54,748 bases of DNA from Candidatus Harrisonbacteria bacterium (GTDB lineage: Bacteria; Patescibacteriota; Minisyncoccia; UBA6257; UBA11618): contig JAHFLN010000002.1 of the NCBI GenBank assembly GCA_023244835.1, positions 1 through 54,748 of the forward strand. Direction: 5' to 3'. This document shows positions 1,978-53,349 of this stretch, piece by piece. How positions within the stretch are numbered: the stretch's first letter is position 1; each line of letters opens with the position of its first letter. The position numbers and the translations under genes are program-made. The notes beneath the pieces were generated by a model that saw only the letters and a list, made by a program, of their open reading frames with translations, was not told where the DNA came from and made no database searches.

Positions 1978-1983
1978 GCGGTG

Positions 1984-2166: not shown

Positions 2167-2171
2167 AGTCT

Positions 2172-2759: not shown

Positions 2760-2777
2760 GATAGATTGGATTGTGTC

Positions 2778-13000: not shown

Positions 13001-14431
13001 TTACGGCTCGTATTTCCAGACCCGGTCGCTGATTTTCCCGTAGCGCGGGTCGCCGTGCGGCTCGAATGCCCCGCTTCTCCGGGCATTATAGATAAGCGCT
13101 TCTGTTTTTCCGGTGCGCCAGGGTTCTCTCGCAAACGACGAGGCGATTGCCGGATGCCCCCCATATCCTTCGAGGAATTGCCGATATGTCGGGCTGTTAA
13201 CGAAGATGGGCAATGCCCCATAGCGCCCGGCCAGCGCTTTTACTTCGGCGAATTCTCTTTTGTCCATAAGCGGCTCCATGCGAGCGCTTTCATAGAGCGT
13301 ATAGCCCGCAAGGGCGAGAAATAAGAGATATCCGCAAGCTTTCGATACGCGATTTCGTAGCAGTATTCCATAGAATATCTTTATCGTTTCTCCTGCGAGC
13401 ATGATTGCTGCGATGTCAAAAAGCAGTATGAACCTGTTATGGAAGATCGAATTGAGCGCAACGAGCGCGATCGTGACGAGCGCGTAGATTCCCATAAAAG
13501 AGAGCTTTTCGCTCCGGATGCCTTGCGCGAGCGCGTAAAGCGCGAATGGCAGATAAAACAGCATGAGCGCGCTGTGATAGAAGGAAAAGTTCACGAAATG
13601 TCCCGCGAGGAAGAGAGCTTTTTCCCGGCCGTATGTTCCTACCGCATATGACGCGGCGTTTTCCGCGTAGCCCGCGATAGCCGGGAATTGATAGATCAGG
13701 GTTCCGAGAAGCGATATGCCGAGAATCATCATCCCATATCGCTGTTTTTCCTTGTCGATGATCACGAGCCCTAGAAGCGTAATGGCGAGGGGCACGAATG
13801 TCACGAAATGGATGATTCCCGCCGCGGTCGCCCATAGCGCGGCATATGGAGACCTCCTTTGGTATGCCACCATAGCGCATAGCGTGAACGCCATCGCAAT
13901 TTCCATATTAAGGAAGAACGACCAGTATGTCAGAAATTGCGGAAGGGAAAGAGCGAATGCCATGAGACTCCAGAACGCCGCATTGCGGGAACTGTATTCT
14001 TTCGCTGCGACATAAAGCATCGCGGCAAGGCCTGCTTGCGCGCACAGCGCGAGGGTTATAAGCGCGGTCTCTGGTCCCATTCCGATCGCGCTCGACGGAT
14101 AGGCAAACAACGCGATGGGCGTCGCGGCACATGACGCGAACGTTTCGAGGCATCGGTTGAAATTCAGGTAATACGCGGCGCTATCGGCTCCCAGGCCCAT
14201 TATTCCTCCCCATCGCATGATCGGGAGCGCCCGCGATATAATCAGGATCGCGATGGGAATTCCAAGCATCGCATCGGGAATAACCGTTTTTTCCTCGTTT
14301 TCGCTTTTTTTGCTTGAGAGCGCCATGAATATTCCCCCGGCCAATGCCCAATATGCGAATATGGTCGTGAGCGGTGAACCGAGTGGCGTTGCCAGGAGCA
14401 CGAGCGCGAGATACGCTTGAGGCAGATTCAT
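13001..14431 (-). CDS. Polytopic membrane protein, GT-C-like (putative lipid-linked-sugar glycosyltransferase or polymerase)
   Basis: 476 aa with about 11 hydrophobic helices. An Asp-aromatic motif lies in an early loop (GLGADSAAYYLNF), and there is a C-terminal soluble tail. It is divergent from the GT2 gene with a 15-nt spacer. Confidence 0.6.
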   Translation of the reverse strand: MNLPQAYLALVLLATPLGSPLTTIFAYWALAGGIFMALSSKKSENEEKTVIPDAMLGIPIAILIISRALPIMRWGGIMGLGADSAAYYLNFNRCLETFASCAATPIALFAYPSSAIGMGPETALITLALCAQAGLAAMLYVAAKEYSSRNAAFWSLMAFALSLPQFLTYWSFFLNMEIAMAFTLCAMVAYQRRSPYAALWATAAGIIHFVTFVPLAITLLGLVIIDKEKQRYGMMILGISLLGTLIYQFPAIAGYAENAASYAVGTYGREKALFLAGHFVNFSFYHSALMLFYLPFALYALAQGIRSEKLSFMGIYALVTIALVALNSIFHNRFILLFDIAAIMLAGETIKIFYGILLRNRVSKACGYLLFLALAGYTLYESARMEPLMDKREFAEVKALAGRYGALPIFVNSPTYRQFLEGYGGHPAIASSFAREPWRTGKTEALIYNARRSGAFEPHGDPRYGKISDRVWKYEP

Positions 14432-14446
14432 GTGCCTCTATTCTAG

Positions 14447-15118
14447 ATGAACCGCATCGCCGTTGTCATTCCCGCTTATAACGAGGAGCGGAATGTCGCG
14501 CTTGTTGCGCGCGAAGCCGCACGGCATGCCGAGTGGGTCATCGTAGTGGATGACGGATCGCGCGACGGGACATGGGATGCCATACGAAGCCTTCAGCCTC
14601 CCATATTCCCGTATCGCCATATTATAAATCTTGGAAAAGGAGCGGCTTTGAAAACCGGATGCGCCGCCGCCGAGCTTTTCGGAGCTGCGGTTATCGTCAC
14701 GCTCGATGCCGACGGCCAACATCCTCCCGAATACATTCCCGGCATCGTGCGGCATATGGACGAGCACGGGCTCCAGTTCGTTTTCGGCGAACGGTCGGGC
14801 GGCGACCGGATGCCTTTCATCCGCCGCGCGGGGAATTACGCGATCAACCAGGCCGCGTACCGGCTCTTTAATCTTCGCACGCGGGACGTATGGTGCGGCT
14901 TCCGGGCATTTCGCGCGTCATGCCTGCCGCGCATTCCCTGGAAAGCCCGTGATTACTCGGGAGAAGTGCAGATGGCCCTCGCGGTCGGCAGGAGCGGCAT
15001 TCCTTACGGATCCTATTCCATACCCACCATATACGAGGAGGGTGCGGCAAAGGGCGTCCATATCCTCCATGGCCTGAAACTCCTCGGGCAGATGGCCTTA
15101 TGGCGCATGATGTCTTAA
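14447..15118 (+). CDS. GT2 polyprenyl-phosphate glycosyltransferase (DPM1/GtrB/ArnC-like)
   Basis: VVIPAYNEERNV, VVDDGSRDGT and LDADGQHPPEYIP. The last matches the DADxQH motif of polyprenyl-phosphate sugar synthases. Confidence 0.85.
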   Translation: MNRIAVVIPAYNEERNVALVAREAARHAEWVIVVDDGSRDGTWDAIRSLQPPIFPYRHIINLGKGAALKTGCAAAELFGAAVIVTLDADGQHPPEYIPGIVRHMDEHGLQFVFGERSGGDRMPFIRRAGNYAINQAAYRLFNLRTRDVWCGFRAFRASCLPRIPWKARDYSGEVQMALAVGRSGIPYGSYSIPTIYEEGAAKGVHILHGLKLLGQMALWRMMS

Positions 15119-15128
15119 GATATCCACC

Positions 15129-15461
15129 ATGGCAGGCATTCAGCTTATCGGGATTATCGTAGCGCTTTCGGCGATCCATTTAACCCATCTGTATTATAAG
15201 CGGTCTTATTTTTCGAAAAAGGAGCTGTTTTTTTGGGCGGGCTTATGGTGCGTTTTCATGGCACTAGCCCTTTTTCCCGGGAGCGTTTCCCCGCTTACCG
15301 GATATCTTGGTCTTGCGCGCCCTATGGATCTTATAATGATACTCGCGTTCATCGTTCTTTTTTCCGTCACATTTCATAATTACGTGATGGGTCGAACGCA
15401 TGATCGCGAACTTGAGCGCCTTGTCCGGACAATCGCTTTACGAGATGGCCGCCGACCCTGA
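15129..15461 (+). CDS. DUF2304-like small membrane protein (usual partner of GtrB-type GT2)
   Basis: 110 aa with 3-4 TM helices and a short charged C-terminal helix (HDRELERLVRTIALRD). It lies immediately downstream of the GT2 gene. Confidence 0.7.
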   Translation: MAGIQLIGIIVALSAIHLTHLYYKRSYFSKKELFFWAGLWCVFMALALFPGSVSPLTGYLGLARPMDLIMILAFIVLFSVTFHNYVMGRTHDRELERLVRTIALRDGRRP

Positions 15462-16630: not shown

Positions 16631-17786
16631 TATCCTCATCTTTTCCGTCGATTATTTCCCGTATGCCGGAGGCGCCGAAATCGCCGTTTCCGAGACGTGC
16701 GCCCGCATTCCAGGGCAATCGTTCGTCATGATCACATGCTGGAATGATCGTGCGCTTCCGCGCGAAGAGATGATTGGGAATATCCGCGTTTTCCGCGTCG
16801 GTATCGGCATTCGCGCCATTGACAAATACATCATGCCCGTCACCGCATTCTTCGCCGCGCGAAAACTTCATCGCGCGTCCCCCTTTTCCATAGCATGGGC
16901 GATCATGGCGAATACCGGAGCTATCGCTGCTTTCCTATTTACCCGCATCAATCGGAACGCGCGATATCTCCTGACTCTTCAGGAGGGCGACTCCGAGGCG
17001 TATTATGCTCGCCGTACGTGGTTTTGGGCTCCTTTGTATCGGGCGCTCCATGCGCGCGCCGACCATATCCATGCGATCAGCGGCTATTGCGCTTCCCGGG
17101 CACGACGATACGGATATCGCGGCGCAATTTCGATTATTCCGAACGGTATCGATTCGGTCTTATTTAACCCGTCTTCGCTTTCTTCTTCCGCCCGCGACCA
17201 CGCGCGAAGCGTCTCGCGCGCCCTTTCGGGAGAGCGTATTATTTTTACGGCATCTCGCCTCGAAGAGAAGAATGGCGTCGATATTTTGTTACGGGCGTAT
17301 GCTCTTTTTTCGGCCGGATGCGGCATTCCGTCGCGTCTCGTCATAGCCGGCACCGGCACCGAAGAGGCGTCCTTAAAGCGTCTCGCGCGCAGTCTCGGCA
17401 TTTCCGGATCCGTTTCGTTTCTCGGTTATCTTCCCCATGCGGAGATGGTTTCCGTGCTCAAGTCTGCCGATATTTTCGTTAGGCCTTCCCGTTCCGAGGG
17501 TTTAGGCAACGCCTTCCTCGAAGCTTTGGCATGCGGTATTCCGGCTATAGGAACGCCCGTTGGCGGCATTCCTGACTTCCTCGCCGATGGCATAACAGGC
17601 CTGCTTTCTCGGACGGAGGATCCGGCTTCTCTCGCTGATTGCATGAAACGCGGCCTTTTTGATTCTTCGTTGCGCGACGCGCTCATTTCCGGAGGACTTG
17701 CCGCCGTGCGGGAAAAATACGATTGGCATTACATAGCCCCGAAGATTTCAGCGATGCTTATTTCCCTATCAGCCGTTTCCGAATGA
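16623..17786 (+). CDS. GT4-family glycosyltransferase
   Basis: Starts at MANILIFSVDYFPYAGGAEI (ATG 16623, 8-nt overlap with the previous stop). Motif RPSRSEGLGNAFLEALACGIPAIGTPVGGIPDFL. Confidence 0.85.
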   Translation: MANILIFSVDYFPYAGGAEIAVSETCARIPGQSFVMITCWNDRALPREEMIGNIRVFRVGIGIRAIDKYIMPVTAFFAARKLHRASPFSIAWAIMANTGAIAAFLFTRINRNARYLLTLQEGDSEAYYARRTWFWAPLYRALHARADHIHAISGYCASRARRYGYRGAISIIPNGIDSVLFNPSSLSSSARDHARSVSRALSGERIIFTASRLEEKNGVDILLRAYALFSAGCGIPSRLVIAGTGTEEASLKRLARSLGISGSVSFLGYLPHAEMVSVLKSADIFVRPSRSEGLGNAFLEALACGIPAIGTPVGGIPDFLADGITGLLSRTEDPASLADCMKRGLFDSSLRDALISGGLAAVREKYDWHYIAPKISAMLISLSAVSE

Positions 17787-19860
17787 GATTCCGCATCCCT
17801 ATCATGGATAGGGCGATTAGTATGAGCGTAAACGGGATGAGCGGCAGGAGGTAACGGAAAAATCCGACGCTTACGATCGTAAGAACCAGGCTTTCCGCGA
17901 TTACCATTCCTCCGAGAAGGATGTAGTTTTTCCGTTTCATGCCAGGTTTTATGGTTTCCGGCCACGCCAGGAAAAAAACAGAAGCGGGAATGAACACGAC
18001 GAATGGAGCGAAGAGGGGCCAGTAGAACGGTTTTATTCCAAAGAATATACCCGCCTTCCCTACGAGAAATTCTCCATATTCCCATGGCCGTTCCCATATC
18101 CATTGGAGGTTTCGAGTCGCGCGCCCATCGACGAAGCGGTCCGCCATTTTCGCTATCTTTCGGGGCAGGGTTTTTTGCGGAACAAATCCTTCGGGAACCG
18201 GCGTTCCTATCATAAGGCTTGACGTGCCGCTTGAGCGCGATAATAATTCCATTTTTTCTCCGAATGCGTAGTTGCGGGCGAGAAACGGGGCAAGCACAAG
18301 TCCGTATCCCAGGATGAACGCGGTAAGCGGAATCGCGCTTTTCCGTCCCAGGCTCACCATGATCCATATGAGCGCGAGCGCGATGAATGCCTGCATGTTA
18401 TTCCTCATCAGGACGAGCAGTCCTCCGAGAATTCCCGCTATCGCGAAGCGGAGGGCGCCGTCTCGAGCTCCTTTTTTTTCCGCGTACAGGAGCATTATGA
18501 CCGTCCCTACGGCGAGGAGCGCTCCGATCGGATAGAGGCGCATCGCGTATTCCCGCATCATAGGATGGAGAAAAACGCCGATGCCGGCGGCATATACGAA
18601 CGCGTCGCGTTTTCCAACCATCATTTCCCCGATTTTTATCGTGAGTAGCGCGGTTGCCGTAAGCGCGATTCCTTGCAGCCATAGTATCGGGAAGATCGCT
18701 TCTCCGAAAATGAAGTGGGCGATGGCGAGGAGATAATAGTACAGTATCTGCCAATAGTACGAATGCTTTTCGTAGGCCGTCATCGCCCAGTCTCCCGTCG
18801 CGACAATATGACGCGCGAAAGTTTCATACAGGAGCGGATCGTCTCCGGCCGGAAGCAGGTTGAAATAGCGCGATCCTGCTTCCGCTATGAGCCCGTTCGC
18901 GAAAAAGGCGAATCCCGCGGCGCCGAGGGCGAGGAATACGAATCGATCCGAACGCAGCCATGCGCGCCATGATGCATATCGGCTTCGAAGCATCATGTAT
19001 CCGACGAAAAGCGCGATTGTGATCATAAGGATCCCCGTATTCGCTTTTTGCCATGCGTCGTCCTTTGCAAGCGTCTTCTCCGTTTCCGGTCTGACGCGCA
19101 TGAACTCTTCGGAAATTTTCACCGCATCTCCTCCATTCTTCCATGAGAGGGAGATATCCCTGATCGCCGCAGCGCCTGATTCATACCGTATTTCGAGAGG
19201 AGTCGTCCCTTTCTCATATGCGAGGGGAACGACGATAGGAGCCGTATTTCCGCTTATCGGAATTCCATTCAGCGACGCATATACCTTTGCATCCCCGTTT
19301 GCCGCGATGACGATGGCATCCGATCCTTTTCGAATGCGGATATTGCTTTTCCATATCGTTTCGAACGGGATGACTGTTTTGTCTATCCCGATGCTGTAGT
19401 CGCCGAACCGATCTTTGTCGTTCATGAACCATAAGGGGAACGGATGCGCGTCGAGCGGATAGCCTCCCGTCTTAAAGTCTATTTCAGGATCGACGCGCGT
19501 TTCGAGAAGGCTTATTTTCGTTCCGTTCGCGGTTGTTTCGGGGGCGTAATATGCGCCGATCGCCCCGCGTTCCGACGAATGCGATCGCGCGGCGATTTTT
19601 ATCCCCATCGCGATTATCAGTACGCACGCGATTATCGCGTACCATTTTACGTTCAGCTCGTCTTTTTCGCGTTTGTTTTCGGGCAGTGCCATGAAGCATC
19701 CGATCATGACAGTCAGGACTATGAGTTCGTGGAGCGTTCCGAGCGGGATTCCGTCGAGCCAGGGACCCAGTCCCGGAACTATGAGAAATAAAACGAACAG
19801 GCATTCACAGGAGCGTTTGAGAACGCGGATATTTTCCTTTATGATGGTGGGGAATGTCAT
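17758..19860 (-). CDS. Large GT-C-like membrane glycosyltransferase with an inserted PA14-like beta-domain
   Basis: 700 aa. It has N-terminal TM helices, then a ~190-aa soluble segment resembling PA14 (GAYYAPETT...RVDPEIDF...TIWKSNIRIRKGSDAIVIAANGDAKVYASLNG). This is followed by ~11 TM helices with the loop motif PAGDDPLLYETFARHI, typical of ArnT/PMT-like GT-C enzymes. Confidence 0.7.
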   Translation of the reverse strand: MTFPTIIKENIRVLKRSCECLFVLFLIVPGLGPWLDGIPLGTLHELIVLTVMIGCFMALPENKREKDELNVKWYAIIACVLIIAMGIKIAARSHSSERGAIGAYYAPETTANGTKISLLETRVDPEIDFKTGGYPLDAHPFPLWFMNDKDRFGDYSIGIDKTVIPFETIWKSNIRIRKGSDAIVIAANGDAKVYASLNGIPISGNTAPIVVPLAYEKGTTPLEIRYESGAAAIRDISLSWKNGGDAVKISEEFMRVRPETEKTLAKDDAWQKANTGILMITIALFVGYMMLRSRYASWRAWLRSDRFVFLALGAAGFAFFANGLIAEAGSRYFNLLPAGDDPLLYETFARHIVATGDWAMTAYEKHSYYWQILYYYLLAIAHFIFGEAIFPILWLQGIALTATALLTIKIGEMMVGKRDAFVYAAGIGVFLHPMMREYAMRLYPIGALLAVGTVIMLLYAEKKGARDGALRFAIAGILGGLLVLMRNNMQAFIALALIWIMVSLGRKSAIPLTAFILGYGLVLAPFLARNYAFGEKMELLSRSSGTSSLMIGTPVPEGFVPQKTLPRKIAKMADRFVDGRATRNLQWIWERPWEYGEFLVGKAGIFFGIKPFYWPLFAPFVVFIPASVFFLAWPETIKPGMKRKNYILLGGMVIAESLVLTIVSVGFFRYLLPLIPFTLILIALSMIGMRNLIRKRLIGK

Positions 19861-20711
19861 ATATTAGCCTTGCGCGGCCTCAGCAATGGATCAAGAATTT
19901 CCTTGTTTTCGCCCCGCTTTTTTTCGTCGGGCATGCGAGTCATCCTACCGAAATGTTCGCCGTTCTCACGACGTTCGCGATTTTTACCTGCTTTTCCGCA
20001 TGCGCCTATGTTTTGAATGATATCATCGATCGTTCTTCCGACGCATCGCATCCTACGAAACGCTTTCGCCCCATAGCTTTCGGCGCCGTATCTCCTCTTA
20101 AGGCCGGCATATTCGCGGCCGTTATTTTTCTCATTGCCGTATTAGTGATGCGCGCATTCGTTCCGGCAATTACGGGCATCATGACGGCGTATGCCGTTCT
20201 CGCGGTTTTTTACACGCTTATTTTGAAGAATATTCCGCTGGTCGATATTTTTACCGTTTCGTCCTTTTATCTCCTACGCGTCGCGGCGGGAGGAGCGGCG
20301 ATCGATATCATTCCTTCCCGATGGCTCGTCGCATGCGTCATGTTTTTCGCGCTTTTCATCGTTCTCGGGAAGCGTCGCGCCGAGTGCGTGCATTCCGAAC
20401 CGCGCGCCGTTCTCGCTCTCTATGGTCCCGATCCCGACGGCATGCGGGACATGCTTGATCGGCTGATCCTTATTGCCGCGGCAGTCTCGATCGCCTCATA
20501 CGGGGCGTACGCGATACTCGCCGTTGAGTCCGATTGGACGGTTTACTCCCTCTTTTTCGTCATGTTCGGCGTATTCCGATATATTTTTCTCATATATCAC
20601 TCGGCATTTGCCGAATCGGCCGAGGTCGCCCTTATGAAAGACATGCCGCTTTTCCTTTCGGTTTTCGCCTGGATACTCTTCATGTATGTTGCCGTATATC
20701 ATTTCGTATGA
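19854..20711 (+). CDS. UbiA-family polyprenyl-phosphate 5-phosphoribosyltransferase (Rv3806c/DPPR-synthase-like)
   Basis: RPQQWIKNFLVFAPLFF, YVLNDIIDRSSDASHPTKRFRPIAFGAVS, and FYLLRVAAGGAAIDIIPSRWL...VLGKRRAE. These parallel M. tuberculosis Rv3806c (RPRQWVKNVLV, YLVNDVRDVEADREHPTKRFRPIAAG, AYLIRAIAGGVATKIPLSKWF...VAGKRYAE). Confidence 0.85.
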   Translation: MSYISLARPQQWIKNFLVFAPLFFVGHASHPTEMFAVLTTFAIFTCFSACAYVLNDIIDRSSDASHPTKRFRPIAFGAVSPLKAGIFAAVIFLIAVLVMRAFVPAITGIMTAYAVLAVFYTLILKNIPLVDIFTVSSFYLLRVAAGGAAIDIIPSRWLVACVMFFALFIVLGKRRAECVHSEPRAVLALYGPDPDGMRDMLDRLILIAAAVSIASYGAYAILAVESDWTVYSLFFVMFGVFRYIFLIYHSAFAESAEVALMKDMPLFLSVFAWILFMYVAVYHFV

Positions 20712-21418
20712 CCCATTTCGACCGCATTGACGATTATGACGCGGAGATCCCCGCGCACGTACGGGACCATTTCATGGCACGAAAGATCGATTACCTGCTT
20801 TCGCGTTCCCGCGAGCGGTTCGGCGATCGCGCGCTTTCCTTTCTCGACGCGGGCTGCGGTACCGGATGGCATGTCCGCGCCCTCCGCGATGCCGGGCATG
20901 AGGCGACAGGTCTCGACGATTCCGAGCGGCAGATCGCGCAGGCGCGGATACACGATCCCCGATCCCGATTCGTTTGCGGCAGCATGCTGTCGCTTCCTTT
21001 TCCGGACGCCTCGTTCGACGTCTCATACGCGGTCAATTCCCTGCATCATCTTCCTTCCCGTGCCGCGCAAGAAACCGCATTCCGCGAATTGCTCCGCGTG
21101 ACGAAGCCCGGGGGTTTCGTGGCCGTCCATGAGATGAATACGAGAAATCCTTTCATCCGTTTTTATCTTTCATGGATTTTTCCCCGTCTGAAGCCGATCG
21201 ATACCGGCGCGGAGCTATGGATCCTTCCATCGCATTTACAGGGGCGATACGGAACCGCATGCGGTCCCGTATCGTATTTTACGTTCACGCCGGACTTCGC
21301 TCCGCGCGCCTTGATACCGTTTTTTTCATGGCTTGAGCGATTTCTTGAGCGGACGCCCGGGCGCATTTGGTCCGCCCATTACGCGGTTACTATCGACTCT
21401 TCCCATACATCCTTATGA
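20708..21418 (+). CDS. Class I SAM-dependent methyltransferase
   Basis: Starts at MTHFDRI (ATGA overlap with the UbiA stop). Motif I FLDAGCGTGWH, and post-I/II motifs LPFPDASFDVSYAVNSLHHL and KPGGFVAVHE. Confidence 0.85.
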   Translation: MTHFDRIDDYDAEIPAHVRDHFMARKIDYLLSRSRERFGDRALSFLDAGCGTGWHVRALRDAGHEATGLDDSERQIAQARIHDPRSRFVCGSMLSLPFPDASFDVSYAVNSLHHLPSRAAQETAFRELLRVTKPGGFVAVHEMNTRNPFIRFYLSWIFPRLKPIDTGAELWILPSHLQGRYGTACGPVSYFTFTPDFAPRALIPFFSWLERFLERTPGRIWSAHYAVTIDSSHTSL

Positions 21419-22446
21419 CCTATCTCATTACCGGGGGCTCCGGTTTTCTCGGCATCAATCTTATACGGCACCTTCTCGCCCGGGGGGCTTTCATACGTTC
21501 GTTCGATATAGCGCCTTTTTCGTATCCCGAAGCGGCCGATATAGAAGCTGTCACGGGCGATATCCGCGACTTTCCCGCTCTCCTTCGTGCCATGCGGGAC
21601 GTCGATGCCGTTGTCCATTGCGCCGCCGCGCTTCCGCTGTATTCCGAACAGGATATCGTGTCTACCGATATCTTAGGGACGCGCAATGTCCTCGAGGCCG
21701 CGCGCGTTTCCGGCATTTCCCGCGTCGTCCATATTTCTTCGACCGCCGTGTACGGCATTCTCGCCCATTGCCCCGCTTTCGAGGACGCTCCGCTTGTGGG
21801 CGTCGGCCCTTACGGCAAGGCGAAAATCGCCGCCGAATCCGCATGTCTCGATTATCGCGCGCGAGGCATGTGCGTCCCCGTGATCCGTCCCAAGTCGTTC
21901 GTCGGGCCGGAGCGTCTCGGCGTCTTCTCGCTTCTGTATGACTGGGCATCGTCGGGCAAACATTTCCCCATCATCGGCAATGGGCGCAACCGGTACCAGC
22001 TTCTCGACGTCGCCGACTTATGCTCGTTCATCTCTTTAGCCCTTTCGGCGGATTCCCGGATCGCGAATGCCACGTTCAATGTCGGCGCCCGCGAATTCTT
22101 GACCGTTCGGGAAGAATATCAGGCCGTGCTTGATCGCGCGGGATTCGGGAAGCGCGTCATAGCTTTTCCCGCGAGCCCTGCCATTTTTGCATTGCGCGCG
22201 CTCCATGCGTGCCGCTTGTCGCCGATTTACCCTTGGGTGTATGAGACCGCCGGCAAGGATTCATATGTTTCGATCGCGAAGGCCGAACGCGATCTCGGAT
22301 ACGTACCCCGTTATTCCAATGTCGACGCGCTTCTGCGGAACTATGAATGGTATCTCGCTAATCCTCCCCTGCCCCATGTCTCCGGCATATCGCATCGCGT
22401 TCCTTGGAGCGGCGGAGCATTGCGATTTCTCAAGGCGTTTTTCTGA
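21415..22446 (+). CDS. NAD-dependent epimerase/dehydratase (extended SDR)
   Basis: Starts at MTYLITGGSGFLGINLIRHLL (ATGA overlap). Rossmann motif GGSGFLG and catalytic YGKAK (YxxxK). Confidence 0.85.
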   Translation: MTYLITGGSGFLGINLIRHLLARGAFIRSFDIAPFSYPEAADIEAVTGDIRDFPALLRAMRDVDAVVHCAAALPLYSEQDIVSTDILGTRNVLEAARVSGISRVVHISSTAVYGILAHCPAFEDAPLVGVGPYGKAKIAAESACLDYRARGMCVPVIRPKSFVGPERLGVFSLLYDWASSGKHFPIIGNGRNRYQLLDVADLCSFISLALSADSRIANATFNVGAREFLTVREEYQAVLDRAGFGKRVIAFPASPAIFALRALHACRLSPIYPWVYETAGKDSYVSIAKAERDLGYVPRYSNVDALLRNYEWYLANPPLPHVSGISHRVPWSGGALRFLKAFF

Positions 22447-22895
22447 TGTGCTCATCTCTTTTTTTTGCCGACTCCCCCGTGCCGATTCCCGTTCCGGATA
22501 TCGTGATTCTCGATGTTGAAGGAACAATCGCGTTTCACGGTTCGTCGAAGGCCGAGGCGCGTGCCGCTTCCCGTGTCGCCGCTTTGCGCGGCATGACCAC
22601 GCTCTTCATATGCTCAAATGCTTCTGACTCCGCCCGTATCGCGGGCATAGTCCGCGATCTCGGTATTTCTCCCCTCGCGCTTCGGGGTCGAAAGCCGTGG
22701 GGTATTCTTCCTCCTAATTTTCCGCGAGGGAAGACTATATCCGTTTTTGGCGATAAGCTCATTACGGACGGGCTTTTCGCCTGGCGCATCGGCGCCCGTT
22801 TCGTGAAGGTGCGCCGGCTCGTTTCGGGCACCGAGTCCCTGACCGATACGATTGTCTTTATGCTCGACGATTTTCTCGCTTTATTCTTCGCATGA
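22446..22895 (+). CDS. HAD-superfamily phosphatase (YqeG/IIIA-like)
   Basis: 149 aa with motif I ILDVEGTI and a later GDKLITDG. Its ATG at 22446 shares one nt with the SDR stop (TGATG). Confidence 0.65.
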   Translation: MCSSLFFADSPVPIPVPDIVILDVEGTIAFHGSSKAEARAASRVAALRGMTTLFICSNASDSARIAGIVRDLGISPLALRGRKPWGILPPNFPRGKTISVFGDKLITDGLFAWRIGARFVKVRRLVSGTESLTDTIVFMLDDFLALFFA

Positions 22896-24004
22896 GAATC
22901 CTTCTTGCGACCGGCATTTTTCCTCCCGACGTCGGCGGGCCGGCAACATATGTTCCTTCGTTTGCCTCCGCGTGCGTTTTGCGCGGGCATACCGCAACCG
23001 TCATCGCATACGGGAATTCCCTCGGACGGGACGCATTTAGCTTTCCCGTCGTTTCCATTCCCCGATGGCCTCTTCCATTCCGTTACGCGTTATTTTTTCT
23101 CGCTTGCGTTCGTTACGGCTTTTCTACCGATATCGTTTTCGCGCAGGACGGATTTTCGTCCGGCATCCCCGCCTTTTTCGCTTCGGTTATCATCCGCAGG
23201 CGTCTTGTCGTAAAGATCGTCGGGGATGCGGCATGGGAATACGCCCGGAATGTCGGCATGACGGACGACACCATCGATCTGTTCCAGAATCGGACGTCCT
23301 ATCCCCTTATCATCAAAGCGATCCGTTTCTTCCAGCGCGCCGTTTGTCGGCATAGCTCCCAGGTCATCGTTCCGAGTGATTATTTGAAGCGTGTGGTGAT
23401 CCGGTGGGGCGTGTCTCCTGATATGATCGTCGTAATTCGCAATACCGCCCCCCGTTCCCTTCCATCAGCTTCTTTCTCCCGGGACCATACGCGTTTCTTT
23501 TCTGCCGGACGGCTTGTTCTATGGAAACATTTTGACATTCTGATCCGGGCTTTCGCGCGCGTGTCTGCCGACTATCCCCGCGCGCGGTTTTCAATTGCGG
23601 GAGATGGTCCGTGCCGAGAGATGCTTGAATCTGAGATCGCGCGTACCGGCATGGGCGAGCGCATCACGCTTCTCGGCATCTTGCCGCCTTCGGAGATGGC
23701 GGCATGGTATTCCCGCGCGGGATGCTTTCTCCTCTTTTCGGATTATGAGGGATTATCGCATGTTCTTTTAGAAGCAATCTCGTACGGCCTTCCCGTGATA
23801 GCGAGCAATGCGGGCGGGAATTCCGAGACGGTCAAGCATGGCGAGAACGGCATCCTCGTGCCCTATGGCGACGAAGCGGCTCTCGTGACGGCGATGATTT
23901 CCTTTCTACGAGATCCCGCATTGATTCCCCATCCCGGACCTTCCCGTTCCGATCCGTATTCTTTCGACGATCAGATCGCGTTTACCCTCCGCGCCCTTTC
24001 ATGA
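22892..24004 (+). CDS. GT4-family glycosyltransferase
   Basis: MRILLATGIFPPDVGGPATYV and FSDYEGLSHVLLEAISYGLPVIASNAGGNSETV. ATGA overlap with the HAD stop. Confidence 0.85.
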   Translation: MRILLATGIFPPDVGGPATYVPSFASACVLRGHTATVIAYGNSLGRDAFSFPVVSIPRWPLPFRYALFFLACVRYGFSTDIVFAQDGFSSGIPAFFASVIIRRRLVVKIVGDAAWEYARNVGMTDDTIDLFQNRTSYPLIIKAIRFFQRAVCRHSSQVIVPSDYLKRVVIRWGVSPDMIVVIRNTAPRSLPSASFSRDHTRFFSAGRLVLWKHFDILIRAFARVSADYPRARFSIAGDGPCREMLESEIARTGMGERITLLGILPPSEMAAWYSRAGCFLLFSDYEGLSHVLLEAISYGLPVIASNAGGNSETVKHGENGILVPYGDEAALVTAMISFLRDPALIPHPGPSRSDPYSFDDQIAFTLRALS

Positions 24005-25155
24005 AAATCCTCATGTTCTCATTAGACGCGAACCTTCTTGACCCCTCGTCCCGGGCATCGGAGCGTATGCGCGCGTATGCCGCAGTTCTCGACGAACTCC
24101 ATATCATCGTGCCTATGCCGTTTCCGCGCCATGACGCATTTTCTCCGCGCGACAATCTCCATATTCATGCGGCAGGGCGTTCCATCGGCTATTTCCTTAC
24201 GGCGTACCGTCTCGGTTTTGGCATAATCAAGCGATACCGGTTTTCGCCGCATGATGATTGCATTACCGCCCAAGACGCCTTTCCCACGGGCATCGTCGCA
24301 TGGCTCCTCGCGCATCGTACCAGCATGCCTCTGCAATTGCAGGCACATACTCCTTTTTTTCATGGCCGGTTCATATGGCAGTCGCCATTCCAATTCATCC
24401 AATATCGCGTTGCGCGATTCCTCTATCCCCGAGCCGATGCCGTGCGTGTGGTTTCGCGGGAAATAGCCCTGTATATGACCGATCAGCTCCTTATTCCTAA
24501 AGAAAGGATTTCCACGCTTCCCGTATTTTCCGATTTTCCGTCTGGAGGCGATGGACACGATGCCGGCCATTTTCGCGCAAAATATCCCCAGTTCTCATTT
24601 ATCGCGTGTATGCCGACCCGGTTCGTTATCGAGAAGAATATAGCGATGGCCATCCGGGCGTTCATACGGCTCTCCTCCTCGCATCCCGATATCGGGCTCA
24701 TCATCCAGGGCCGCGGGCCTTCCGAGGCGGCATTGCGCCGCCTTGCGCGCGATGCGAACGGGTCCGTCATATTCGAGCCGTGGGGCGATCCTTCACCTCT
24801 CTATCGGAGTGCGGATGCCTATCTCTGCACGTCATGGTACGAGGGATGGTGTCTCGGCATCGTCGAGGCGATGCATGCCGGCGTGCCGGTCATAACCACG
24901 CCTGTCGGTTCCGCGAACGAATTCGTGAGGGACGGGGAGAATGGATTAGTCGTTCCGTGCGATGACAGCGACGCTCTTCATAACGCTCTTCTTTCCCTTT
25001 ATCGTTTTCCCGAATTACGCCGGCGTTCTGCGGATATCGCCATGCGCGATGCTTGTCGGTTTTTTTCAGCGACTGCGAGAGAGCATGCTTTCTTAATACG
25101 AGAGGGATTTCGGAAGGCCGTAGCGAATTCCCGTATTGCTTGTCCTCTCGCATAA
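24001..25155 (+). CDS. GT4-family glycosyltransferase
   Basis: MKILMFSLD... and TSWYEGWCLGIVEAMHAGVPVITTPVGSANEFV. ATGA overlap with the upstream GT4. Confidence 0.8.
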   Translation: MKILMFSLDANLLDPSSRASERMRAYAAVLDELHIIVPMPFPRHDAFSPRDNLHIHAAGRSIGYFLTAYRLGFGIIKRYRFSPHDDCITAQDAFPTGIVAWLLAHRTSMPLQLQAHTPFFHGRFIWQSPFQFIQYRVARFLYPRADAVRVVSREIALYMTDQLLIPKERISTLPVFSDFPSGGDGHDAGHFRAKYPQFSFIACMPTRFVIEKNIAMAIRAFIRLSSSHPDIGLIIQGRGPSEAALRRLARDANGSVIFEPWGDPSPLYRSADAYLCTSWYEGWCLGIVEAMHAGVPVITTPVGSANEFVRDGENGLVVPCDDSDALHNALLSLYRFPELRRRSADIAMRDACRFFSATAREHAFLIREGFRKAVANSRIACPLA

Positions 25156-25239: not shown

Positions 25240-25875
25240 ATGAGAAATATTTTCTATATAATGCGACATGCGCAGTCCGATCACAATATCGGATCGTGGA
25301 TTTCGGGCGATGCCGCAACCGACTTGAAATCGCGCCTTACGGAAACGGGCAAGGAGCAGGCGCGACGGCTGGGCCAGGAAGCTGCCGCGCTCGGCATCAC
25401 TCGCATATACAGGTCTCCTTTCCAGCGTGTGAAGGCGACATGCGACATCGTGACCGCGCACTGTCCGGTTCCCGTTTCCGTCGACGACCGTCTCCGCCAG
25501 CTCGATTGCGGCCTTTTCAATGGCAAGACATGGACGGAACGCGAGGCATTTTTCGCCGACCATTACGAGAAACTACATCGTCCTTCCCCGGGCGGCGAGA
25601 GCCTGATGGATGTCCAGCGCCGCATGGTCGAGGCCATAGGCGATATCGACCGATGGAACGAGGGTGAGACGATACTTATCATAAGCCACGGCAATCCTTT
25701 GCGCATGCTCCAAGTCGCCGCGCTTTGTTTGCCCGCCGAAGCTGCCCTTACCGACATGCGGGCCCTGCAATGGAAGTCTGACGTTTCTCCCGATCCCTCG
25801 ATCGGCCCCCTTCTCATTCACCCCGTTTTCAATTCTGCCCGATCATATTCCGATGCCGTCAGGACGAGCTCCTGA
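25240..25875 (+). CDS. Histidine phosphatase (phosphoglycerate-mutase superfamily)
   Basis: IMRHAQSDHN (RHG-type motif), YRSPFQRVKAT, GGES and ISHGNPLR. Confidence 0.8.
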   Translation: MRNIFYIMRHAQSDHNIGSWISGDAATDLKSRLTETGKEQARRLGQEAAALGITRIYRSPFQRVKATCDIVTAHCPVPVSVDDRLRQLDCGLFNGKTWTEREAFFADHYEKLHRPSPGGESLMDVQRRMVEAIGDIDRWNEGETILIISHGNPLRMLQVAALCLPAEAALTDMRALQWKSDVSPDPSIGPLLIHPVFNSARSYSDAVRTSS

Positions 25876-26707
25876 TTTCATCGGGCTCGGCGGCGGACGT
25901 TCGGGAACGAATTGGCTCGCGGCATGTATCGACGAGCATCCGCACGCATCCGTTCCCGTCGGCGAAGTCCATTTTTTTAGTCGCGACCGCTTCGTGCGCG
26001 AGGGGTCCGGACAGTATGAGGCTATCTTCTCATCATGTCCTCATGGAGATCTCGTCGGCGAATGCTCTTCGTCGTATTGGGCGAGCGAAGAGGCTCCCGC
26101 ACGCATCGCTTCTCTCTATCCTGACGCGAAGCTTATTATATCGCTCCGCGACCCTATCGATCGGGCTTTTTCCCAGTATCGCAACGAATCTGGGTCAGGG
26201 CGCATTGCTTCCGACGCCTCATTCCTTTCCGCGTTCGCGGCCCGTCCCGAATATCGCGCCGGAAGTTCCCATGGGGTTAATCTGGAACGCTATCTCGCCT
26301 ATATTCCCGCCGATCGCATGCATATCATGATTTTCGAGGAGACGCATGCTGACCCGGAGCGCGCCTTACACGATCTTTTCCTTTTCTTAGGCCTCGATCC
26401 TGACGTTCCTATCCCTTCGGCATGCGTGCGTGTTAATGAGAGCGCTATTTCGCGATCGACGGCATTCGCGCGGGCGATCGCATGGGGGTCGGGTATATTG
26501 AAACGCCCCCGACTTATCGGCTTATGGCGATTCCTGCAGGCATCGGGGATCGCCTCATTTCTCAAGTCCCTTAATGCCTATCCCGAGGCTCCTGGATCCC
26601 GTTCGCCTTCCTCTTCCGATCGTGCCGCACTTCTGCCTATTTTTTTGTCTGATATAGGCCGCATAGAAACCTTTCTTGGTCGCTCCTTGCCTTCATGGCG
26701 CGCCTGA
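25853..26707 (+). CDS. PAPS-dependent sulfotransferase-family protein
   Basis: 5'-phosphosulfate loop GLGGGRSGTNWL and 3'-phosphate motif ISLRDPIDRAFSQYRN. Overlaps the phosphatase gene by 23 nt. Confidence 0.75.
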   Translation: MPSGRAPDFIGLGGGRSGTNWLAACIDEHPHASVPVGEVHFFSRDRFVREGSGQYEAIFSSCPHGDLVGECSSSYWASEEAPARIASLYPDAKLIISLRDPIDRAFSQYRNESGSGRIASDASFLSAFAARPEYRAGSSHGVNLERYLAYIPADRMHIMIFEETHADPERALHDLFLFLGLDPDVPIPSACVRVNESAISRSTAFARAIAWGSGILKRPRLIGLWRFLQASGIASFLKSLNAYPEAPGSRSPSSSDRAALLPIFLSDIGRIETFLGRSLPSWRA

Positions 26708-41115: not shown

Positions 41116-41121
41116 ATCCGC

Positions 41122-41706: not shown

Positions 41707-41712
41707 GTGTCA

Positions 41713-53336: not shown

Positions 53337-53349
53337 CAAATTCAGTACG

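What the first reader, a model, noticed from the sequence alone, without database searches (positions are those of the whole stretch)
19854..22895. Non-canonical polyprenyl-phospho-pentofuranose donor module: DPPR-synthase homologue coupled to methyltransferase, SDR epimerase and HAD phosphatase
- **Seen:** the UbiA-family ORF shares its three diagnostic blocks with M. tuberculosis Rv3806c (RPxQWxKN; NDxxDxxxDxxHPTKRFRPIAxG; the AGG…GKRxAE block). It is chained by ATGA/TGATG overlaps to a SAM methyltransferase, an extended SDR (GGSGFLG, YGKAK) and a HAD phosphatase (DVEGT).
- **Established:** Rv3806c makes decaprenyl-phospho-ribose-5-phosphate. This is dephosphorylated by a PAP2 phosphatase (Rv3807c). 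It is then 2'-epimerised to decaprenyl-phospho-arabinofuranose by DprE1 (a VAO-type flavoenzyme) plus DprE2 (a short SDR). The product is used only by GT-C arabinofuranosyltransferases.
- **Inference:** neither a PAP2 phosphatase nor a VAO-type DprE1 is visible here. A HAD phosphatase and a single extended SDR occupy the equivalent operon positions, and GT-C genes flank the module. A Glf-like flavoenzyme sits at 44100-45566.
- **Model:** an analogous route with different enzymes, producing a lipid-linked ribo- or arabinofuranose (possibly methylated) in a non-actinobacterial, CPR-like organism.
Basis: partly seen in the sequence, partly recalled or inferred. Interest (0 to 1): 0.75.

Follow-up and report, generated by a model that had tools for sequence, protein, structure and literature searches.

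The report
Lipid-linked pentofuranose donor gene cassette
Four overlapping genes in a Parcubacteria-like genome most likely build a lipid-carried five-carbon sugar (ribofuranose, then probably an epimer of it) for decorating the cell surface; this kind of pathway was described in Citrobacter in 2024, and this is a variant of it.

Summary
Positions 19854-22895 hold four translationally coupled genes. They encode an Rv3806c-type phosphoribosyltransferase of the UbiA family, a class I SAM methyltransferase, an extended SDR and a small HAD phosphatase.

Kelly et al. (PNAS 2024, PMC11127046) showed in Citrobacter youngae that a HAD-fused UbiA enzyme makes undecaprenyl-P-ribofuranose from PRPP. A single SDR epimerises it to the xylofuranose donor, and a GT-C enzyme transfers the sugar.

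Comparative genomics ties three of the window's genes together:
- The HAD is homologous to the N-terminal domain of HAD::UbiA fusions in CPR (Candidate Phyla Radiation) bacteria.
- The SDR (57-62% identical) directly follows the UbiA gene in CPR loci. Relatives of it (44-51% identical) neighbour a UbiA gene on haloarchaeal and Streptomyces plasmids.
- The divergent 700-aa neighbour is a GT-C.

Differences from the prototype:
- The HAD is YqeG/PGP-type (capless), not the capped PRP type.
- A methyltransferase is inserted, in this clade only.
- No flippase gene is seen in the window.

The sugar made (Xylf, Araf or other) is unresolved, because the ORF13 sequence could not be obtained. I rate this a new variant of a known kind, of moderate interest.

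The parts
19854..20711 (+). Polyprenyl-phosphate 5-phosphoribosyltransferase (PPPRS/DPPRS type, UbiA family), 285 aa, about 7-9 TM helices
   Evidence: The only PDB hit is Rv3806c (8j8j), E 5.9e-30, full length. The best NCBIfam models are DPPRS at 163 and 157 bits, below their cutoffs of 207 and 234. 15 of 17 functional Rv3806c residues are conserved, including the 5'-phosphate binders K28, Y70 and Y157; Q135 is Ala and K208 is Gly (residues from PMC10994848). The public gene call (P0001, 252 aa) starts at M34 and cuts off the essential R8 and K14, so the ATG at 19854 is the better start.
20708..21418 (+). Class I SAM-dependent methyltransferase, 236 aa, soluble; substrate unknown
   Evidence: Pfam Methyltransf_11 at 2.5e-24. 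No NCBIfam equivalog; BioC and UbiE models score far below their cutoffs. No TM segment. Found in this position only in the window, L001 (64% identical) and L010 (64%). Absent from the more distant UbiA-SDR cassettes.
21415..22446 (+). Extended SDR (GalE/RmlB-like fold), 343 aa; candidate polyprenyl-P-ribofuranose epimerase
   Evidence: Pfam Epimerase at 1.2e-37. GGSGFLG motif and S109/T110...Y133-x3-K137 are present. 'STAV' replaces the 'TDE' of 4,6-dehydratases in the alignment to DesIV 1r66. AlphaFold2 model: pLDDT 88.2, pTM 0.89. The best folds are nucleotide-sugar epimerases and dehydratases, with TM-scores (TMq) 0.67-0.77 and 20-27% identity. It is 57-62% identical to the SDR immediately downstream of UbiA in CPR loci and 44-51% identical to SDRs next to DPPRS genes on haloarchaeal and Streptomyces plasmids. 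The signature RP[KR]xxxG[PH]xRLG, a roughly 30-aa insertion and a C-terminal 'HRVPWxxG...' tail are shared with UbiA-linked SDRs but not with other SDRs in the same loci.
22446..22895 (+). Small capless HAD-IIIA (YqeG/PGP-phosphatase-like) phosphatase, 149 aa; candidate polyprenyl-P-ribose-5-phosphate 5'-phosphatase
   Evidence: NCBIfam TIGR01668 YqeG at 7.5e-10, 38.6 bits, below the cutoff of 89.1. Motifs: I DVEGT, II CSN, III RKPW, IV GDKLITDG. It is 33-37% identical (E 1e-16 to 1e-21) to the N-terminal domain of HAD::UbiA fusion proteins in CPR bacteria. Those N-domains hit Pfam PGP_phosphatase PF09419. There is no similarity to the capped PF12710 'PRP' domain of proteobacterial fusions and no KdsC model hit.
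17758..19860 (-). Divergently transcribed GT-C glycosyltransferase candidate (up to 700 aa): N-terminal TM helices, a beta-rich ectodomain (about residues 95-255), then a roughly 10-TM core carrying 'GDDPLLYETFARHIVATGDW'
   Evidence: About 13 hydrophobic segments. No direct Pfam, NCBIfam or PDB hit. An exhaustive phmmer search with the C-terminal 436 aa gave 302 hits at E<1e-3. All 10 sampled remote hits carry Pfam PMT_2 over the aligned region. Conserved in the same divergent position in L001 (52% identical) and L010. The start codon is uncertain: the longest ORF overlaps the UbiA start by 7 nt, and the L001 homologue starts at the equivalent of residue 35.
19817..19845 (+). Sigma-70-like promoter match (TTGAGA-17-TATGAT) 9 nt upstream of the UbiA start
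   Evidence: 10 of 12 consensus positions. The number of such matches in the region is no higher than in shuffled sequence, so this is only a candidate.
22892..25155 (+). Two GT4 glycosyltransferases continuing the same overlapping operon; they probably build the acceptor glycan
   Evidence: Pfam Glycos_transf_1 at 5e-34 and 8.2e-28. ATGA overlaps. Same order in L001.

Best explanation
The cassette makes a polyprenyl-phosphate-linked pentofuranose donor for extracytoplasmic glycosylation. It works like the Citrobacter youngae O2 system of Kelly et al. 2024. Every step below is inferred; nothing was shown biochemically for these proteins.

1. The UbiA-family enzyme transfers 5-phosphoribosyl from PRPP to polyprenyl phosphate at the cytoplasmic face. 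This rests on homology and conserved catalytic residues.
2. The small HAD-IIIA phosphatase removes the 5'-phosphate to give polyprenyl-P-ribofuranose. This rests on gene fusion in relatives.
3. The extended SDR epimerises one ring carbon through a transient keto intermediate, using tightly bound NAD and with no net redox change. C3 would give xylofuranose, as the precedent ORF13 does. C2 would give arabinofuranose. This rests on gene linkage, active-site motifs and precedent.
4. The donor is flipped. Related loci carry an ArnE/F-like 4-TM protein for this, but none was found in the window.
5. The adjacent GT-C transfers the sugar to a surface glycan built by the GT4-rich operon.

The methyltransferase may methylate the sugar or the glycan; this is speculative. 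A redox-neutral SDR in place of the two-enzyme DprE1 (oxidase) / DprE2 (reductase) epimerisation would also suit a fermentative CPR cell with no respiratory chain to re-oxidise DprE1. That point is my own inference.
For: **UbiA enzyme.**
- It matches Rv3806c over its full length.
- It retains R22, K28, Y70, N73, D77, K87, R90, Y138, K143 and Y157 (roles from PMC10994848).

**Link between the HAD and UbiA genes.**
- Fusion proteins P0007, P0008, P0011, P0016 and P0113 carry an N-domain 33-37% identical to the window HAD.

**Link between the SDR and UbiA genes.**
- An SDR 57-62% identical directly follows UbiA in L002, L005, L006 and L008.
- Among the 80 best genome loci of the SDR family, 9 of 10 CPR-labelled loci have the UbiA gene beside it.
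- The same pair occurs in Haloterrigena, Natronococcus and Halostagnicola, and the Haloterrigena locus also shows a PHP phosphatase and two GT-C genes. It also occurs in Streptomyces sp. SAT1.

**SDR properties.**
- UbiA-linked SDRs share an insertion and a signature absent from the other SDRs in the same loci.
- The SDR lacks the dehydratase Asp/Glu pair.

**GT-C.** Transitive homology to PMT_2.

**Published precedent.** A PRP-HAD::PPPRS enzyme makes polyprenyl-P-Ribf in vitro, and one SDR (ORF13) switches Ribf to Xylf in vivo.
Against: - No biochemical data exist for any of these proteins.
- The SDR family is very large: at least 8000 database proteins at E<=1e-20.
- In 64 of the 80 best genome loci no UbiA gene lies within 6 kb.
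- Conversely, 0 of 80 metagenome loci of DPPRS-like genes carry this SDR.
- The closest solved structures all act on nucleotide sugars.
- HAD motif I has Glu in place of the second Asp (DVEGT).
- The UbiA protein scores below the NCBIfam equivalog cutoffs and has Ala at the ribose-O3 contact Q135.
- No flippase gene was found in the window.
- Orthology of the SDR to ORF13 could not be tested.
Confidence: 0.7

Rival explanations
1. The single SDR is a 2'-epimerase that makes polyprenyl-P-arabinofuranose, so the pathway is a DprE1/DprE2-independent route to the D-Araf donor.
For: The chemistry is as feasible at C2 as at C3. DprE1 and DprE2 are absent from the window. The window SDR is only 35% identical to the Rhizobium CCGE531 SDR of a system listed by Kelly et al. 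and 29% identical to the gut-fragment SDR. It may therefore be a separate specificity class from ORF13.
Against: In every case examined by Kelly et al., Araf glycans went with DprE1/E2 homologues and Xylf glycans with the SDR. No glycan data exist for any organism carrying this SDR family. Nothing in the sequence points to C2.
Confidence: 0.2
2. Only the UbiA enzyme (with some phosphatase) and the GT-C form the pentofuranose system, which adds ribofuranose. The SDR, the methyltransferase and perhaps the HAD serve the neighbouring GT4 genes by modifying nucleotide sugars, and merely share the operon.
For: The operon is one long chain of overlapping glycan genes, so position alone is weak evidence. 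The closest solved relatives of the SDR are UDP- and dTDP-sugar enzymes. Most family members are not near a UbiA gene. Ribf-only systems without an SDR exist, for example Rhodovulum L092 and Vibrio L179.
Against: The minimal CPR cassettes (SMR-like protein, HAD::UbiA, SDR, membrane protein) keep the SDR directly after UbiA at only 35-40% UbiA identity. The HAD is physically fused to UbiA in relatives. The pairing recurs in archaea and in Streptomyces. UbiA-linked SDRs share features that the nucleotide-sugar-like SDRs in the same loci lack.
Confidence: 0.12
3. The UbiA protein is an ordinary aromatic or lipid prenyltransferase (quinone, heme O or archaeal-lipid type), and the resemblance to Rv3806c is a family-level one.
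For: Pfam recognises only the general UbiA family. NCBIfam DPPRS scores are below the equivalog cutoffs.
Against: DPPRS models outscore heme O synthase, UbiA and DGGGP-type models by more than 100 bits. The only PDB hit is Rv3806c. The phosphoribose-specific residues K28, Y70 and Y157, which are not conserved in other UbiA enzymes, are all present.
Confidence: 0.03

Closest known systems
Citrobacter youngae O1/O2 three-component pentofuranose side-chain system (ORF15 PRP::PPPRS, ORF13 SDR epimerase, ORF14 transporter, ORF12 GT-C/GT136); Kelly et al., PNAS 2024, PMC11127046
   Same: A UbiA-type phosphoribosyltransferase uses PRPP and polyprenyl phosphate. A HAD-superfamily 5'-phosphatase replaces PAP2. 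One cytoplasmic extended SDR replaces DprE1/E2. A GT-C with an extra carbohydrate-binding-like ectodomain is encoded alongside. CPR relatives of the window also carry an ArnE/F-like small transporter 32% identical to that of a Vibrio system of the same type.
   Different: The window HAD is a separate, capless, roughly 150-aa HAD-IIIA (YqeG/PGP type, PF09419 in relatives). The prototype has a capped PF12710 'PRP' domain, and the two show no detectable similarity. The CPR HAD::UbiA fusions therefore combine UbiA with a different HAD subfamily from ORF15. A methyltransferase is inserted. No transporter gene lies in the window. The GT-C resembles PMT_2, and its relation to GT136 was not tested. 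The relation of the SDR to ORF13 is unknown. The host is a CPR bacterium, not a Gram-negative with an O antigen.
Mycobacterial decaprenyl-P-arabinofuranose pathway (Rv3806c, Rv3807c, DprE1/DprE2, Rv3789, Emb/Aft GT-C enzymes)
   Same: The first enzyme is the same (full-length alignment; 15 of 17 functional residues conserved). The logic is the same: lipid-P-ribose-5-P, then lipid-P-ribose, then an epimer, then flipping, then GT-C transfer.
   Different: The window has no PAP2 phosphatase, no VAO-type flavoenzyme and no classical short SDR. Epimerisation would be done by a single enzyme with no net redox change. The product is not known to be Araf.
Proteobacterial PRK08238-type HAD::UbiA loci with DprE1/E2-like genes (e.g. 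Cereibacter sphaeroides plasmid, L093) and rhizobial symbiosis-plasmid loci (NGR234, Rhizobium sp. CCGE531)
   Same: They show the HAD-plus-UbiA partnership, small SMR/GtrA transporters and large hypothetical membrane proteins. The rhizobial loci contain an extended SDR 35-36% identical to the window SDR, with the same insertion and C-terminal tail.
   Different: They use the capped HAD domain. They pair a FAD or GMC oxidoreductase with a second reductase. Their gene content is more elaborate.
Gtr-type and ArnT-type periplasmic glycosylation (GtrB/GtrA/Gtr*, ArnC/ArnEF/ArnT)
   Same: A lipid-phosphate sugar donor is made in the cytoplasm, flipped by a small transporter and used by a GT-C enzyme. 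The window also holds a probable second system of this type at 13001-15461.
   Different: The donor is made from PRPP by a UbiA-fold enzyme, not from a nucleotide sugar by a GT2 enzyme.

Membership tests
Rv3806c-type polyprenyl-phosphate 5-phosphoribosyltransferase (DPPRS/PPPRS) | Full-length sequence homology to Rv3806c, closer than to any other UbiA subfamily | tested here: met
   PDB phmmer gives only 8j8j/8j8k, E 5.9e-30, residues 4-281 against 18-299. NCBIfam DPPRS models score 163, 157 and 122 bits; heme O synthase scores 49 bits or less.
Rv3806c-type polyprenyl-phosphate 5-phosphoribosyltransferase (DPPRS/PPPRS) | Mg2+/pyrophosphate site: N73, D77, R22, K87, R90, Y138, K143 | tested here: met
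   All seven are identical in the window protein (roles).
Rv3806c-type polyprenyl-phosphate 5-phosphoribosyltransferase (DPPRS/PPPRS) | Phosphoribose-specific residues not shared with other UbiA enzymes: K28, Y70, Y157 (5'-phosphate) and Q135 (ribose O3) | tested here: inconclusive
   K28, Y70 and Y157 are conserved. Q135 is Ala in the window and Asn in L002.
Rv3806c-type polyprenyl-phosphate 5-phosphoribosyltransferase (DPPRS/PPPRS) | Score above the curated NCBIfam equivalog cutoff | tested here: not met
   163.4 bits against cutoff 207 (NF008978) and 157 against 234 (NF008977). The protein is a divergent member, so the name is by subfamily and not by equivalog.
Rv3806c-type polyprenyl-phosphate 5-phosphoribosyltransferase (DPPRS/PPPRS) | PRPP-dependent formation of polyprenyl-P-ribose-5-P | not testable with these tools
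   Needs an enzyme assay.
Three-component pentofuranose glycosylation system with auxiliary epimerase (Kelly et al. 2024) | A PPPRS gene together with a 5'-phosphoribose phosphatase | tested here: met
   UbiA and HAD lie in one operon. The HAD is homologous to the N-domain of HAD::UbiA fusions.
Three-component pentofuranose glycosylation system with auxiliary epimerase (Kelly et al. 2024) | The phosphatase is the capped 'PRP' HAD domain (PF12710-like) used as the bioinformatic marker | tested here: not met
   The window HAD is about 150 aa with motifs I and II only about 33 residues apart. It has no BLAST similarity to PRP domains. CPR fusion N-domains hit PF09419, while proteobacterial fusions and L096 hit PF12710.
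Three-component pentofuranose glycosylation system with auxiliary epimerase (Kelly et al. 2024) | A small MATE/SMR-type flippase gene in the locus | tested here: not met
   tblastn of the four CPR 120-aa proteins against the window gave nothing below E 0.1. The protein is present in L002, L005, L006, L008 and several genome loci.
Three-component pentofuranose glycosylation system with auxiliary epimerase (Kelly et al. 2024) | A GT-C glycosyltransferase in the locus | tested here: met
   For the 700-aa neighbour, all 10 sampled remote phmmer hits carry PMT_2. Membership of CAZy GT136 specifically was not tested.
Three-component pentofuranose glycosylation system with auxiliary epimerase (Kelly et al. 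2024) | The SDR is an ORF13 homologue (Xylf-forming 3-epimerase) | not testable with these tools
   The ORF13 sequence (locus MH325884.1) is not in any collection available here. The supplementary alignment is an image. CP099034 is absent from the collections.
Mycobacterial DPA pathway | DprE1 (VAO/FAD_binding_4 flavoenzyme), DprE2 (classical SDR) and Rv3807c (PAP2) | tested here: not met
   None was found among the window ORFs. The rest of the genome could not be searched.
HAD superfamily phosphatase, subfamily IIIA (YqeG/PGP phosphatase-like) | Motifs I DxDx[TV], II S/T, III K, IV (G)DxxxxD | tested here: inconclusive
   Motifs II-IV and the nucleophile Asp are present. The second Asp is Glu (DVEGT) in the window and in L001, while more distant homologues have DxDGT. 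NCBIfam YqeG scores 38.6 bits against a cutoff of 89.1.
Extended SDR epimerase (GalE-like) | GxxGxxG, the S/T-Y-K catalytic triad, a two-domain fold, and absence of the dehydratase Asp/Glu pair | tested here: met
   GGSGFLG; S109/T110, Y133, K137. 'STAV' aligns with 'TDE' of DesIV. The AF2 model has pLDDT 88, and Foldseek gives TM-scores (TMq) of 0.67-0.77 to GalE/RmlB-type structures.
Extended SDR epimerase (GalE-like) | A nucleotide-sugar substrate | not testable with these tools
   The 'RxxNxYGP' segment of the nucleotide-sugar-like SDRs in the same loci reads 'RPKSFVGPERLG' here. This is suggestive only.

The most novel reading that the evidence does not exclude
The very conserved SDR family (about 60% identical from CPR bacteria to Chloroflexi, and 44-51% to haloarchaea and Streptomyces) could be a self-contained, redox-neutral polyprenyl-P-ribose 2'-epimerase. 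That would be a DprE1/DprE2-independent route to the D-arabinofuranose donor, and it would be widespread in uncultivated bacteria and in archaea. In this clade the donor might additionally be methylated before transfer.
Probability: 0.2. Interest if true: 0.7.

Novelty: new variant of a known kind. Interest (0 to 1): 0.4.

Why it matters
**Reach of the pathway.** The finding extends the polyprenyl-P-pentofuranose pathway, so far known from mycobacteria, Pseudomonas pili and enterobacterial O antigens, to CPR/Patescibacteria and, through the shared SDR, to haloarchaeal plasmids.

**Repeated recruitment of the phosphatase.** The 5'-dephosphorylation step appears to be served by at least four unrelated phosphatase types:
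- PAP2;
- capped PF12710 HAD;
- capless HAD-IIIA;
- a PHP-domain protein, in the haloarchaeal loci.

**A functional lead for a large family.** At least 8000 proteins now annotated only as 'NAD-dependent epimerase/dehydratase' get a concrete, testable candidate function.

**CPR biology.** The cassette points to pentofuranose-decorated surface glycans, which may matter for attachment to host cells.

It does not reveal a new principle.

Tried and rejected
- **AlphaFold2 model of the 700-aa membrane protein.** With only four homologues the model reached pLDDT 44.7. It was unusable, so no fold search was run on it.
- **hhalign of that family.** Comparisons with a bona fide PMT_2 protein, with the window's 476-aa membrane protein and with the CPR 499-aa protein gave probabilities below 2%. 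Single-sequence profiles are too weak. The GT-C call therefore rests.
- **Attempts to obtain C. youngae ORF13.**
  - The supplementary figure is an image.
  - E. coli RHB45-C06 (CP099034) is not held.
  - A megablast of the gut fragment MT837543 against E. coli genomes found nothing.
  - Plasmid searches found Ribf-only or DprE-type proteobacterial systems, plus rhizobial SDRs of unknown relation to ORF13.
- **Search for a conserved neighbour of the SDR in non-CPR genomes.** None was found. Contexts range from ribosomal-protein genes in Ignavibacteria to varied genes in Chloroflexi. My greedy ORF picking is unreliable in high-GC loci.
- **HAD as the Kdo-8-P phosphatase KdsC.** I considered this because a KdsB gene lies at 34606-35346. 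I rejected it: no KdsC model hit and fusion to UbiA in relatives.
- **4,6-dehydratase function for the SDR.** I considered and rejected this.
- **UbiA phylogeny with an outgroup.** It was not built, because no non-DPPRS UbiA sequences were at hand.

Full report
**1. What is in the sequence.**

ORF listing and junction inspection give four plus-strand genes:
- UbiA homologue, 19854-20711 (285 aa)
- methyltransferase, 20708-21418 (236 aa)
- SDR, 21415-22446 (343 aa)
- HAD, 22446-22895 (149 aa)

They are joined by ATGA, ATGA and TGATG overlaps. The same ATGA chaining runs on into two GT4 genes. After that comes a long glycan operon: a histidine phosphatase, a sulfotransferase, further GT4 genes, a deacetylase and an AsnB-like amidotransferase. 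A 700-aa polytopic membrane protein (17758-19860) is transcribed divergently from the UbiA gene.

**2. The UbiA enzyme.**

- Pfam sees only the general UbiA family (8.2e-18).
- The three NCBIfam decaprenyl-phosphate phosphoribosyltransferase models score 163, 157 and 122 bits. Heme O synthase scores 49 bits and 4-hydroxybenzoate prenyltransferase 31 bits. The scores are below the curated equivalog cutoffs, so the protein is a divergent member.
- In the PDB the only hits are the two Rv3806c cryo-EM entries (E 5.9e-30, end to end).
- I mapped the residues that the structure paper shows to bind Mg2+, pyrophosphate, ribose and the 5'-phosphate (PMC10994848) onto that alignment. 15 of 17 are identical. 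These include K28, Y70 and Y157, which hold the 5'-phosphate and which the authors say are not conserved in other UbiA enzymes. Q135 is Ala and K208 is Gly.

This is a PRPP-type enzyme.

**3. Are the other three genes tied to it?**

A database search with the UbiA protein found a few close relatives (62-78% identical). Identity then drops to about 40%, and that group includes proteins of 424-434 aa.

*Neighbourhoods and BLAST comparisons.*
- The close relative L001 has the same order: GT-C (divergent), then UbiA-MT-SDR-HAD-GT4-GT4.
- The 424-434-aa proteins are HAD::UbiA fusions. Their N-domain is 33-37% identical to the window HAD (E 1e-16 to 1e-21). One is annotated as Candidatus Kaiserbacteria.
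- In all of these distant loci the gene immediately downstream of UbiA is an SDR 57-62% identical to the window SDR. The UbiA parts themselves are only 35-40% identical.
- These loci also carry a 120-aa, 4-TM EamA/SMR-like protein, and often a membrane protein of about 500 aa with no family assignment.
- The methyltransferase is not part of this conserved core.

The fusion links HAD to UbiA. The strict adjacency across deep divergence links SDR to UbiA.

**4. How far does the link extend?**

*Genome scan with the SDR alignment.* A scan of one genome per species found at least 410 relatives. The best 80 are all 59-77% identical and come from many phyla. The closest (77%) is titled 'Parcubacteria group bacterium' and has the window's gene order. 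tblastn on these loci found a DPPRS-like UbiA gene within 6 kb in a minority, with 64 of the 80 lacking one. That is 9 of the 10 CPR-labelled loci and about five of the 70 others. In Chloroflexi, Ignavibacteria, Kiritimatiellia and other phyla the SDR stands alone in varied contexts.

*Where the UbiA genes sit in those phyla.* DPPRS-like genes do exist there, but in other loci.

*Reverse scan.* A metagenome scan with a UbiA alignment gave 80 loci. None has this SDR. About nine have DprE1-plus-DprE2-like pairs, and several have capped HAD genes.

*Annotated plasmids.* The SDR (44-51% identical) lies next to a DPPRS gene in Natronococcus, Haloterrigena and Halostagnicola and in Streptomyces sp. 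SAT1. The annotated Haloterrigena locus also holds a PHP-domain phosphatase and two GT-C genes.

The pairing therefore recurs in several distant lineages and is far above chance, but the SDR family is broader than the module.

**5. Literature.**

Full-text search led to Kelly, Duong, Nothof, Lowary and Whitfield, PNAS 2024 (PMC11127046). In Citrobacter youngae O1/O2:
- ORF15 is an N-terminal HAD 'PRP' phosphatase fused to a UbiA-type synthase 31% identical to Rv3806c. It makes farnesyl-P-ribofuranose from PRPP in vitro.
- ORF13 is a single cytoplasmic SDR with TGxxGxxG and YxxxK motifs. Alone, it converts the Ribf side chain to Xylf, as shown by mutant and complementation NMR.
- ORF14 is a small ArnEF-like transporter.
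- ORF12 is a GT-C that founds family GT136.

The authors report that Xylf-containing glycans have ORF13 homologues and Araf-containing glycans have DprE1/E2 homologues. They list further candidate loci, including one on the Rhizobium sp. CCGE531 plasmid.

**6. How the window differs from that prototype.**

*Phosphatase.* The proteobacterial fusions (Rhodovulum, Cereibacter, Rhizobium) and a free-standing 199-aa protein in a gut-derived fragment all hit Pfam HAD PF12710. They have a cap of about 80 residues between motifs I and II. The CPR fusions hit PGP_phosphatase PF09419, and the window HAD hits only NCBIfam YqeG. Both have about 33 residues between the motifs and no BLAST similarity to the PRP domains. 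Together with PAP2 in mycobacteria and the PHP protein in haloarchaea, this step has been filled by unrelated phosphatases several times. The window clade has DVEGT where relatives have DxDGT. The nucleophile and motifs II-IV are intact.

*Methyltransferase.* A methyltransferase is inserted in this clade only.

*Transporter.* No ArnEF-like transporter is detectable in the window. The CPR 120-aa proteins are 32% identical to the transporter of a Vibrio plasmid system of the prototype kind.

**7. The SDR itself.**

- It has the Rossmann motif and the S/T-Y-K triad.
- In the profile alignment to DesIV its 'STAV' replaces the dehydratase 'TDE'. It is therefore an oxidoreductase or epimerase, not a 4,6-dehydratase.
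- The AlphaFold2 model is confident (pLDDT 88.2). Foldseek finds only generic GalE/RmlB-type neighbours, with TM-scores (TMq) of 0.67-0.77 and 20-27% identity. No member of its own family has been solved.
- An alignment of SDRs from UbiA loci covered the window, CPR, haloarchaeal, Streptomyces, rhizobial and gut-fragment proteins. They share 'RP[KR]xxxG[PH]xRLG' and an insertion of about 30 residues. All but the gut-fragment protein also share a C-terminal 'HRVPWxxG...' tail. The other SDRs encoded in the same loci have 'RxxNxYGP' and lack both features.
- UbiA-linked SDRs score 120-340 bits against each other and 40-100 bits against those outgroups.

This argues for a common lineage of lipid-linked-pentose SDRs, to which ORF13 plausibly belongs. 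I could not obtain the ORF13 sequence, so the carbon that is epimerised stays open. By precedent I put Xylf ahead of Araf.

**8. The GT-C.**

The 700-aa neighbour has no direct family hit and only three homologues in the word-indexed database. Its AF2 model failed. An exhaustive phmmer search with its C-terminal 436 residues found 302 proteins at E<1e-3. All ten remote hits that I scanned carry Pfam PMT_2 across the aligned stretch. Hydropathy shows an N-terminal TM segment or segments, a beta-rich ectodomain, and then about ten TM helices. The loop 'GDDPLLYETFARHIVATGDW' resembles the first-loop acidic motif of ArnT/PMT-type GT-C enzymes; that comparison is from my own knowledge. I accept it as a GT-C. 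Membership of GT136 was not tested.

**9. Mechanism and confidence.**

The most likely mechanism is:
1. PRPP plus polyprenyl-P gives polyprenyl-P-ribose-5-P (UbiA enzyme).
2. Dephosphorylation (HAD).
3. Redox-neutral epimerisation (SDR).
4. Flipping (gene not identified in the window).
5. Transfer by the GT-C to a glycan made by the GT4 operon.

All steps are inferred from homology, fusion, linkage and precedent. Overall confidence is about 0.7.

The rivals are:
- an Araf-forming version (0.2, overlapping with the main model);
- an SDR, methyltransferase and HAD that serve nucleotide-sugar metabolism in the same operon (0.12);
- an ordinary prenyltransferase (0.03).

**10. Verdict.**

The finding is real and sensibly interpreted, but the claimed non-canonical route was described in 2024. 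What is new here:
- the CPR host;
- a different HAD subfamily, both free-standing and fused to UbiA;
- the clade-specific methyltransferase;
- the link to a very large and highly conserved SDR family that has no assigned function.

I rate it a new variant of a known kind, with interest 0.4.

Noticed in passing
window 44100-45566 (-): A 488-aa flavoprotein. It lies above the cutoff for NCBIfam NF005548 ('PRK07208.1-4 hypothetical protein', 432 bits against 389). Its best solved relative is the eukaryote-type UDP-galactopyranose mutase of T. cruzi (4dsg, E 1.1e-27, full length). The bacterial Glf model scores only 52 bits against a cutoff of 304. It may be a pyranose/furanose mutase of an uncharacterised family, about 21 kb from the module.
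   Followed up: partly
window 34606-35346 (+), with 33245-34609 and 35343-36776: A KdsB-type CMP-Kdo synthetase, above NCBIfam cutoffs (TIGR00466 at 182.6 bits against 155.2). This is unexpected in a Parcubacteria-like genome, since CPR bacteria are not known to have an outer membrane. It is flanked by unassigned proteins of 454 aa and 477 aa, the latter with a weak 2OG-oxygenase hit.
   Followed up: partly
window 13001-15461: A probable second lipid-linked sugar system. It consists of a GT2 resembling polyprenyl-P-sugar synthases (PpgS/AglJ/ArnC models, all below cutoff), a 110-aa 3-TM DUF2304 protein, and a divergent 476-aa protein with 8 predicted TM segments and no family hit. The arrangement is conserved in L001.
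   Followed up: partly
window 19854-19860: The UbiA start (ATG 19854) and the longest ORF of the divergent GT-C (ATG 19860) overlap head to head by 7 nt. A sigma-70-like site (19817-19845) lies inside that N-terminus. The L001 homologue starts at the equivalent of residue 35, so the GT-C start is probably further in. The public gene call for UbiA (252 aa) starts at M34 and drops two essential residues.
   Followed up: partly
window 25240-26707 (+): A histidine phosphatase (His_Phos_1; alpha-ribazole-phosphatase-like, below cutoff) and a sulfotransferase lie in the same operon and are absent from the L001 relative. The phosphatase is a second, weaker candidate for removing a ribose 5'-phosphate. 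The sulfotransferase suggests a sulfated glycan.
   Followed up: no
loci L090, L091, L097, L015: Proteins with the LPG_synthase_TM domain (the MprF flippase-like domain) sit next to DPPRS-like UbiA genes or the SDR in Haloterrigena, Streptomyces sp. SAT1 and Chloroflexota. They may be an alternative flippase for the lipid-linked pentose. For L015 the assignment is only my reading of the N-terminal sequence.
   Followed up: no
locus L096 (MT837543.1, 'Bacteriophage sp.' from human faeces), 1228-5749: A complete five-gene cassette on a 6.6-kb fragment: UbiA (293 aa), a free PF12710 HAD (199 aa), an SMR-like protein (118 aa), an SDR (321 aa, 29% identical to the window's) and a DUF6044 membrane protein (565 aa). 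DUF6044 may therefore be a GT-C-like transferase family.
   Followed up: partly
window 39259-43314 (-): Two large polytopic membrane proteins (618 aa and 533 aa) with no family hit flank a secreted F5/8 type C (discoidin) domain protein. They are candidates for further GT-C enzymes or polymerases, but were not assigned.
   Followed up: no
window 53265-53337 and 53873-53945 (+): Two tRNA-Met (CAT) genes about 600 nt apart.
   Followed up: no
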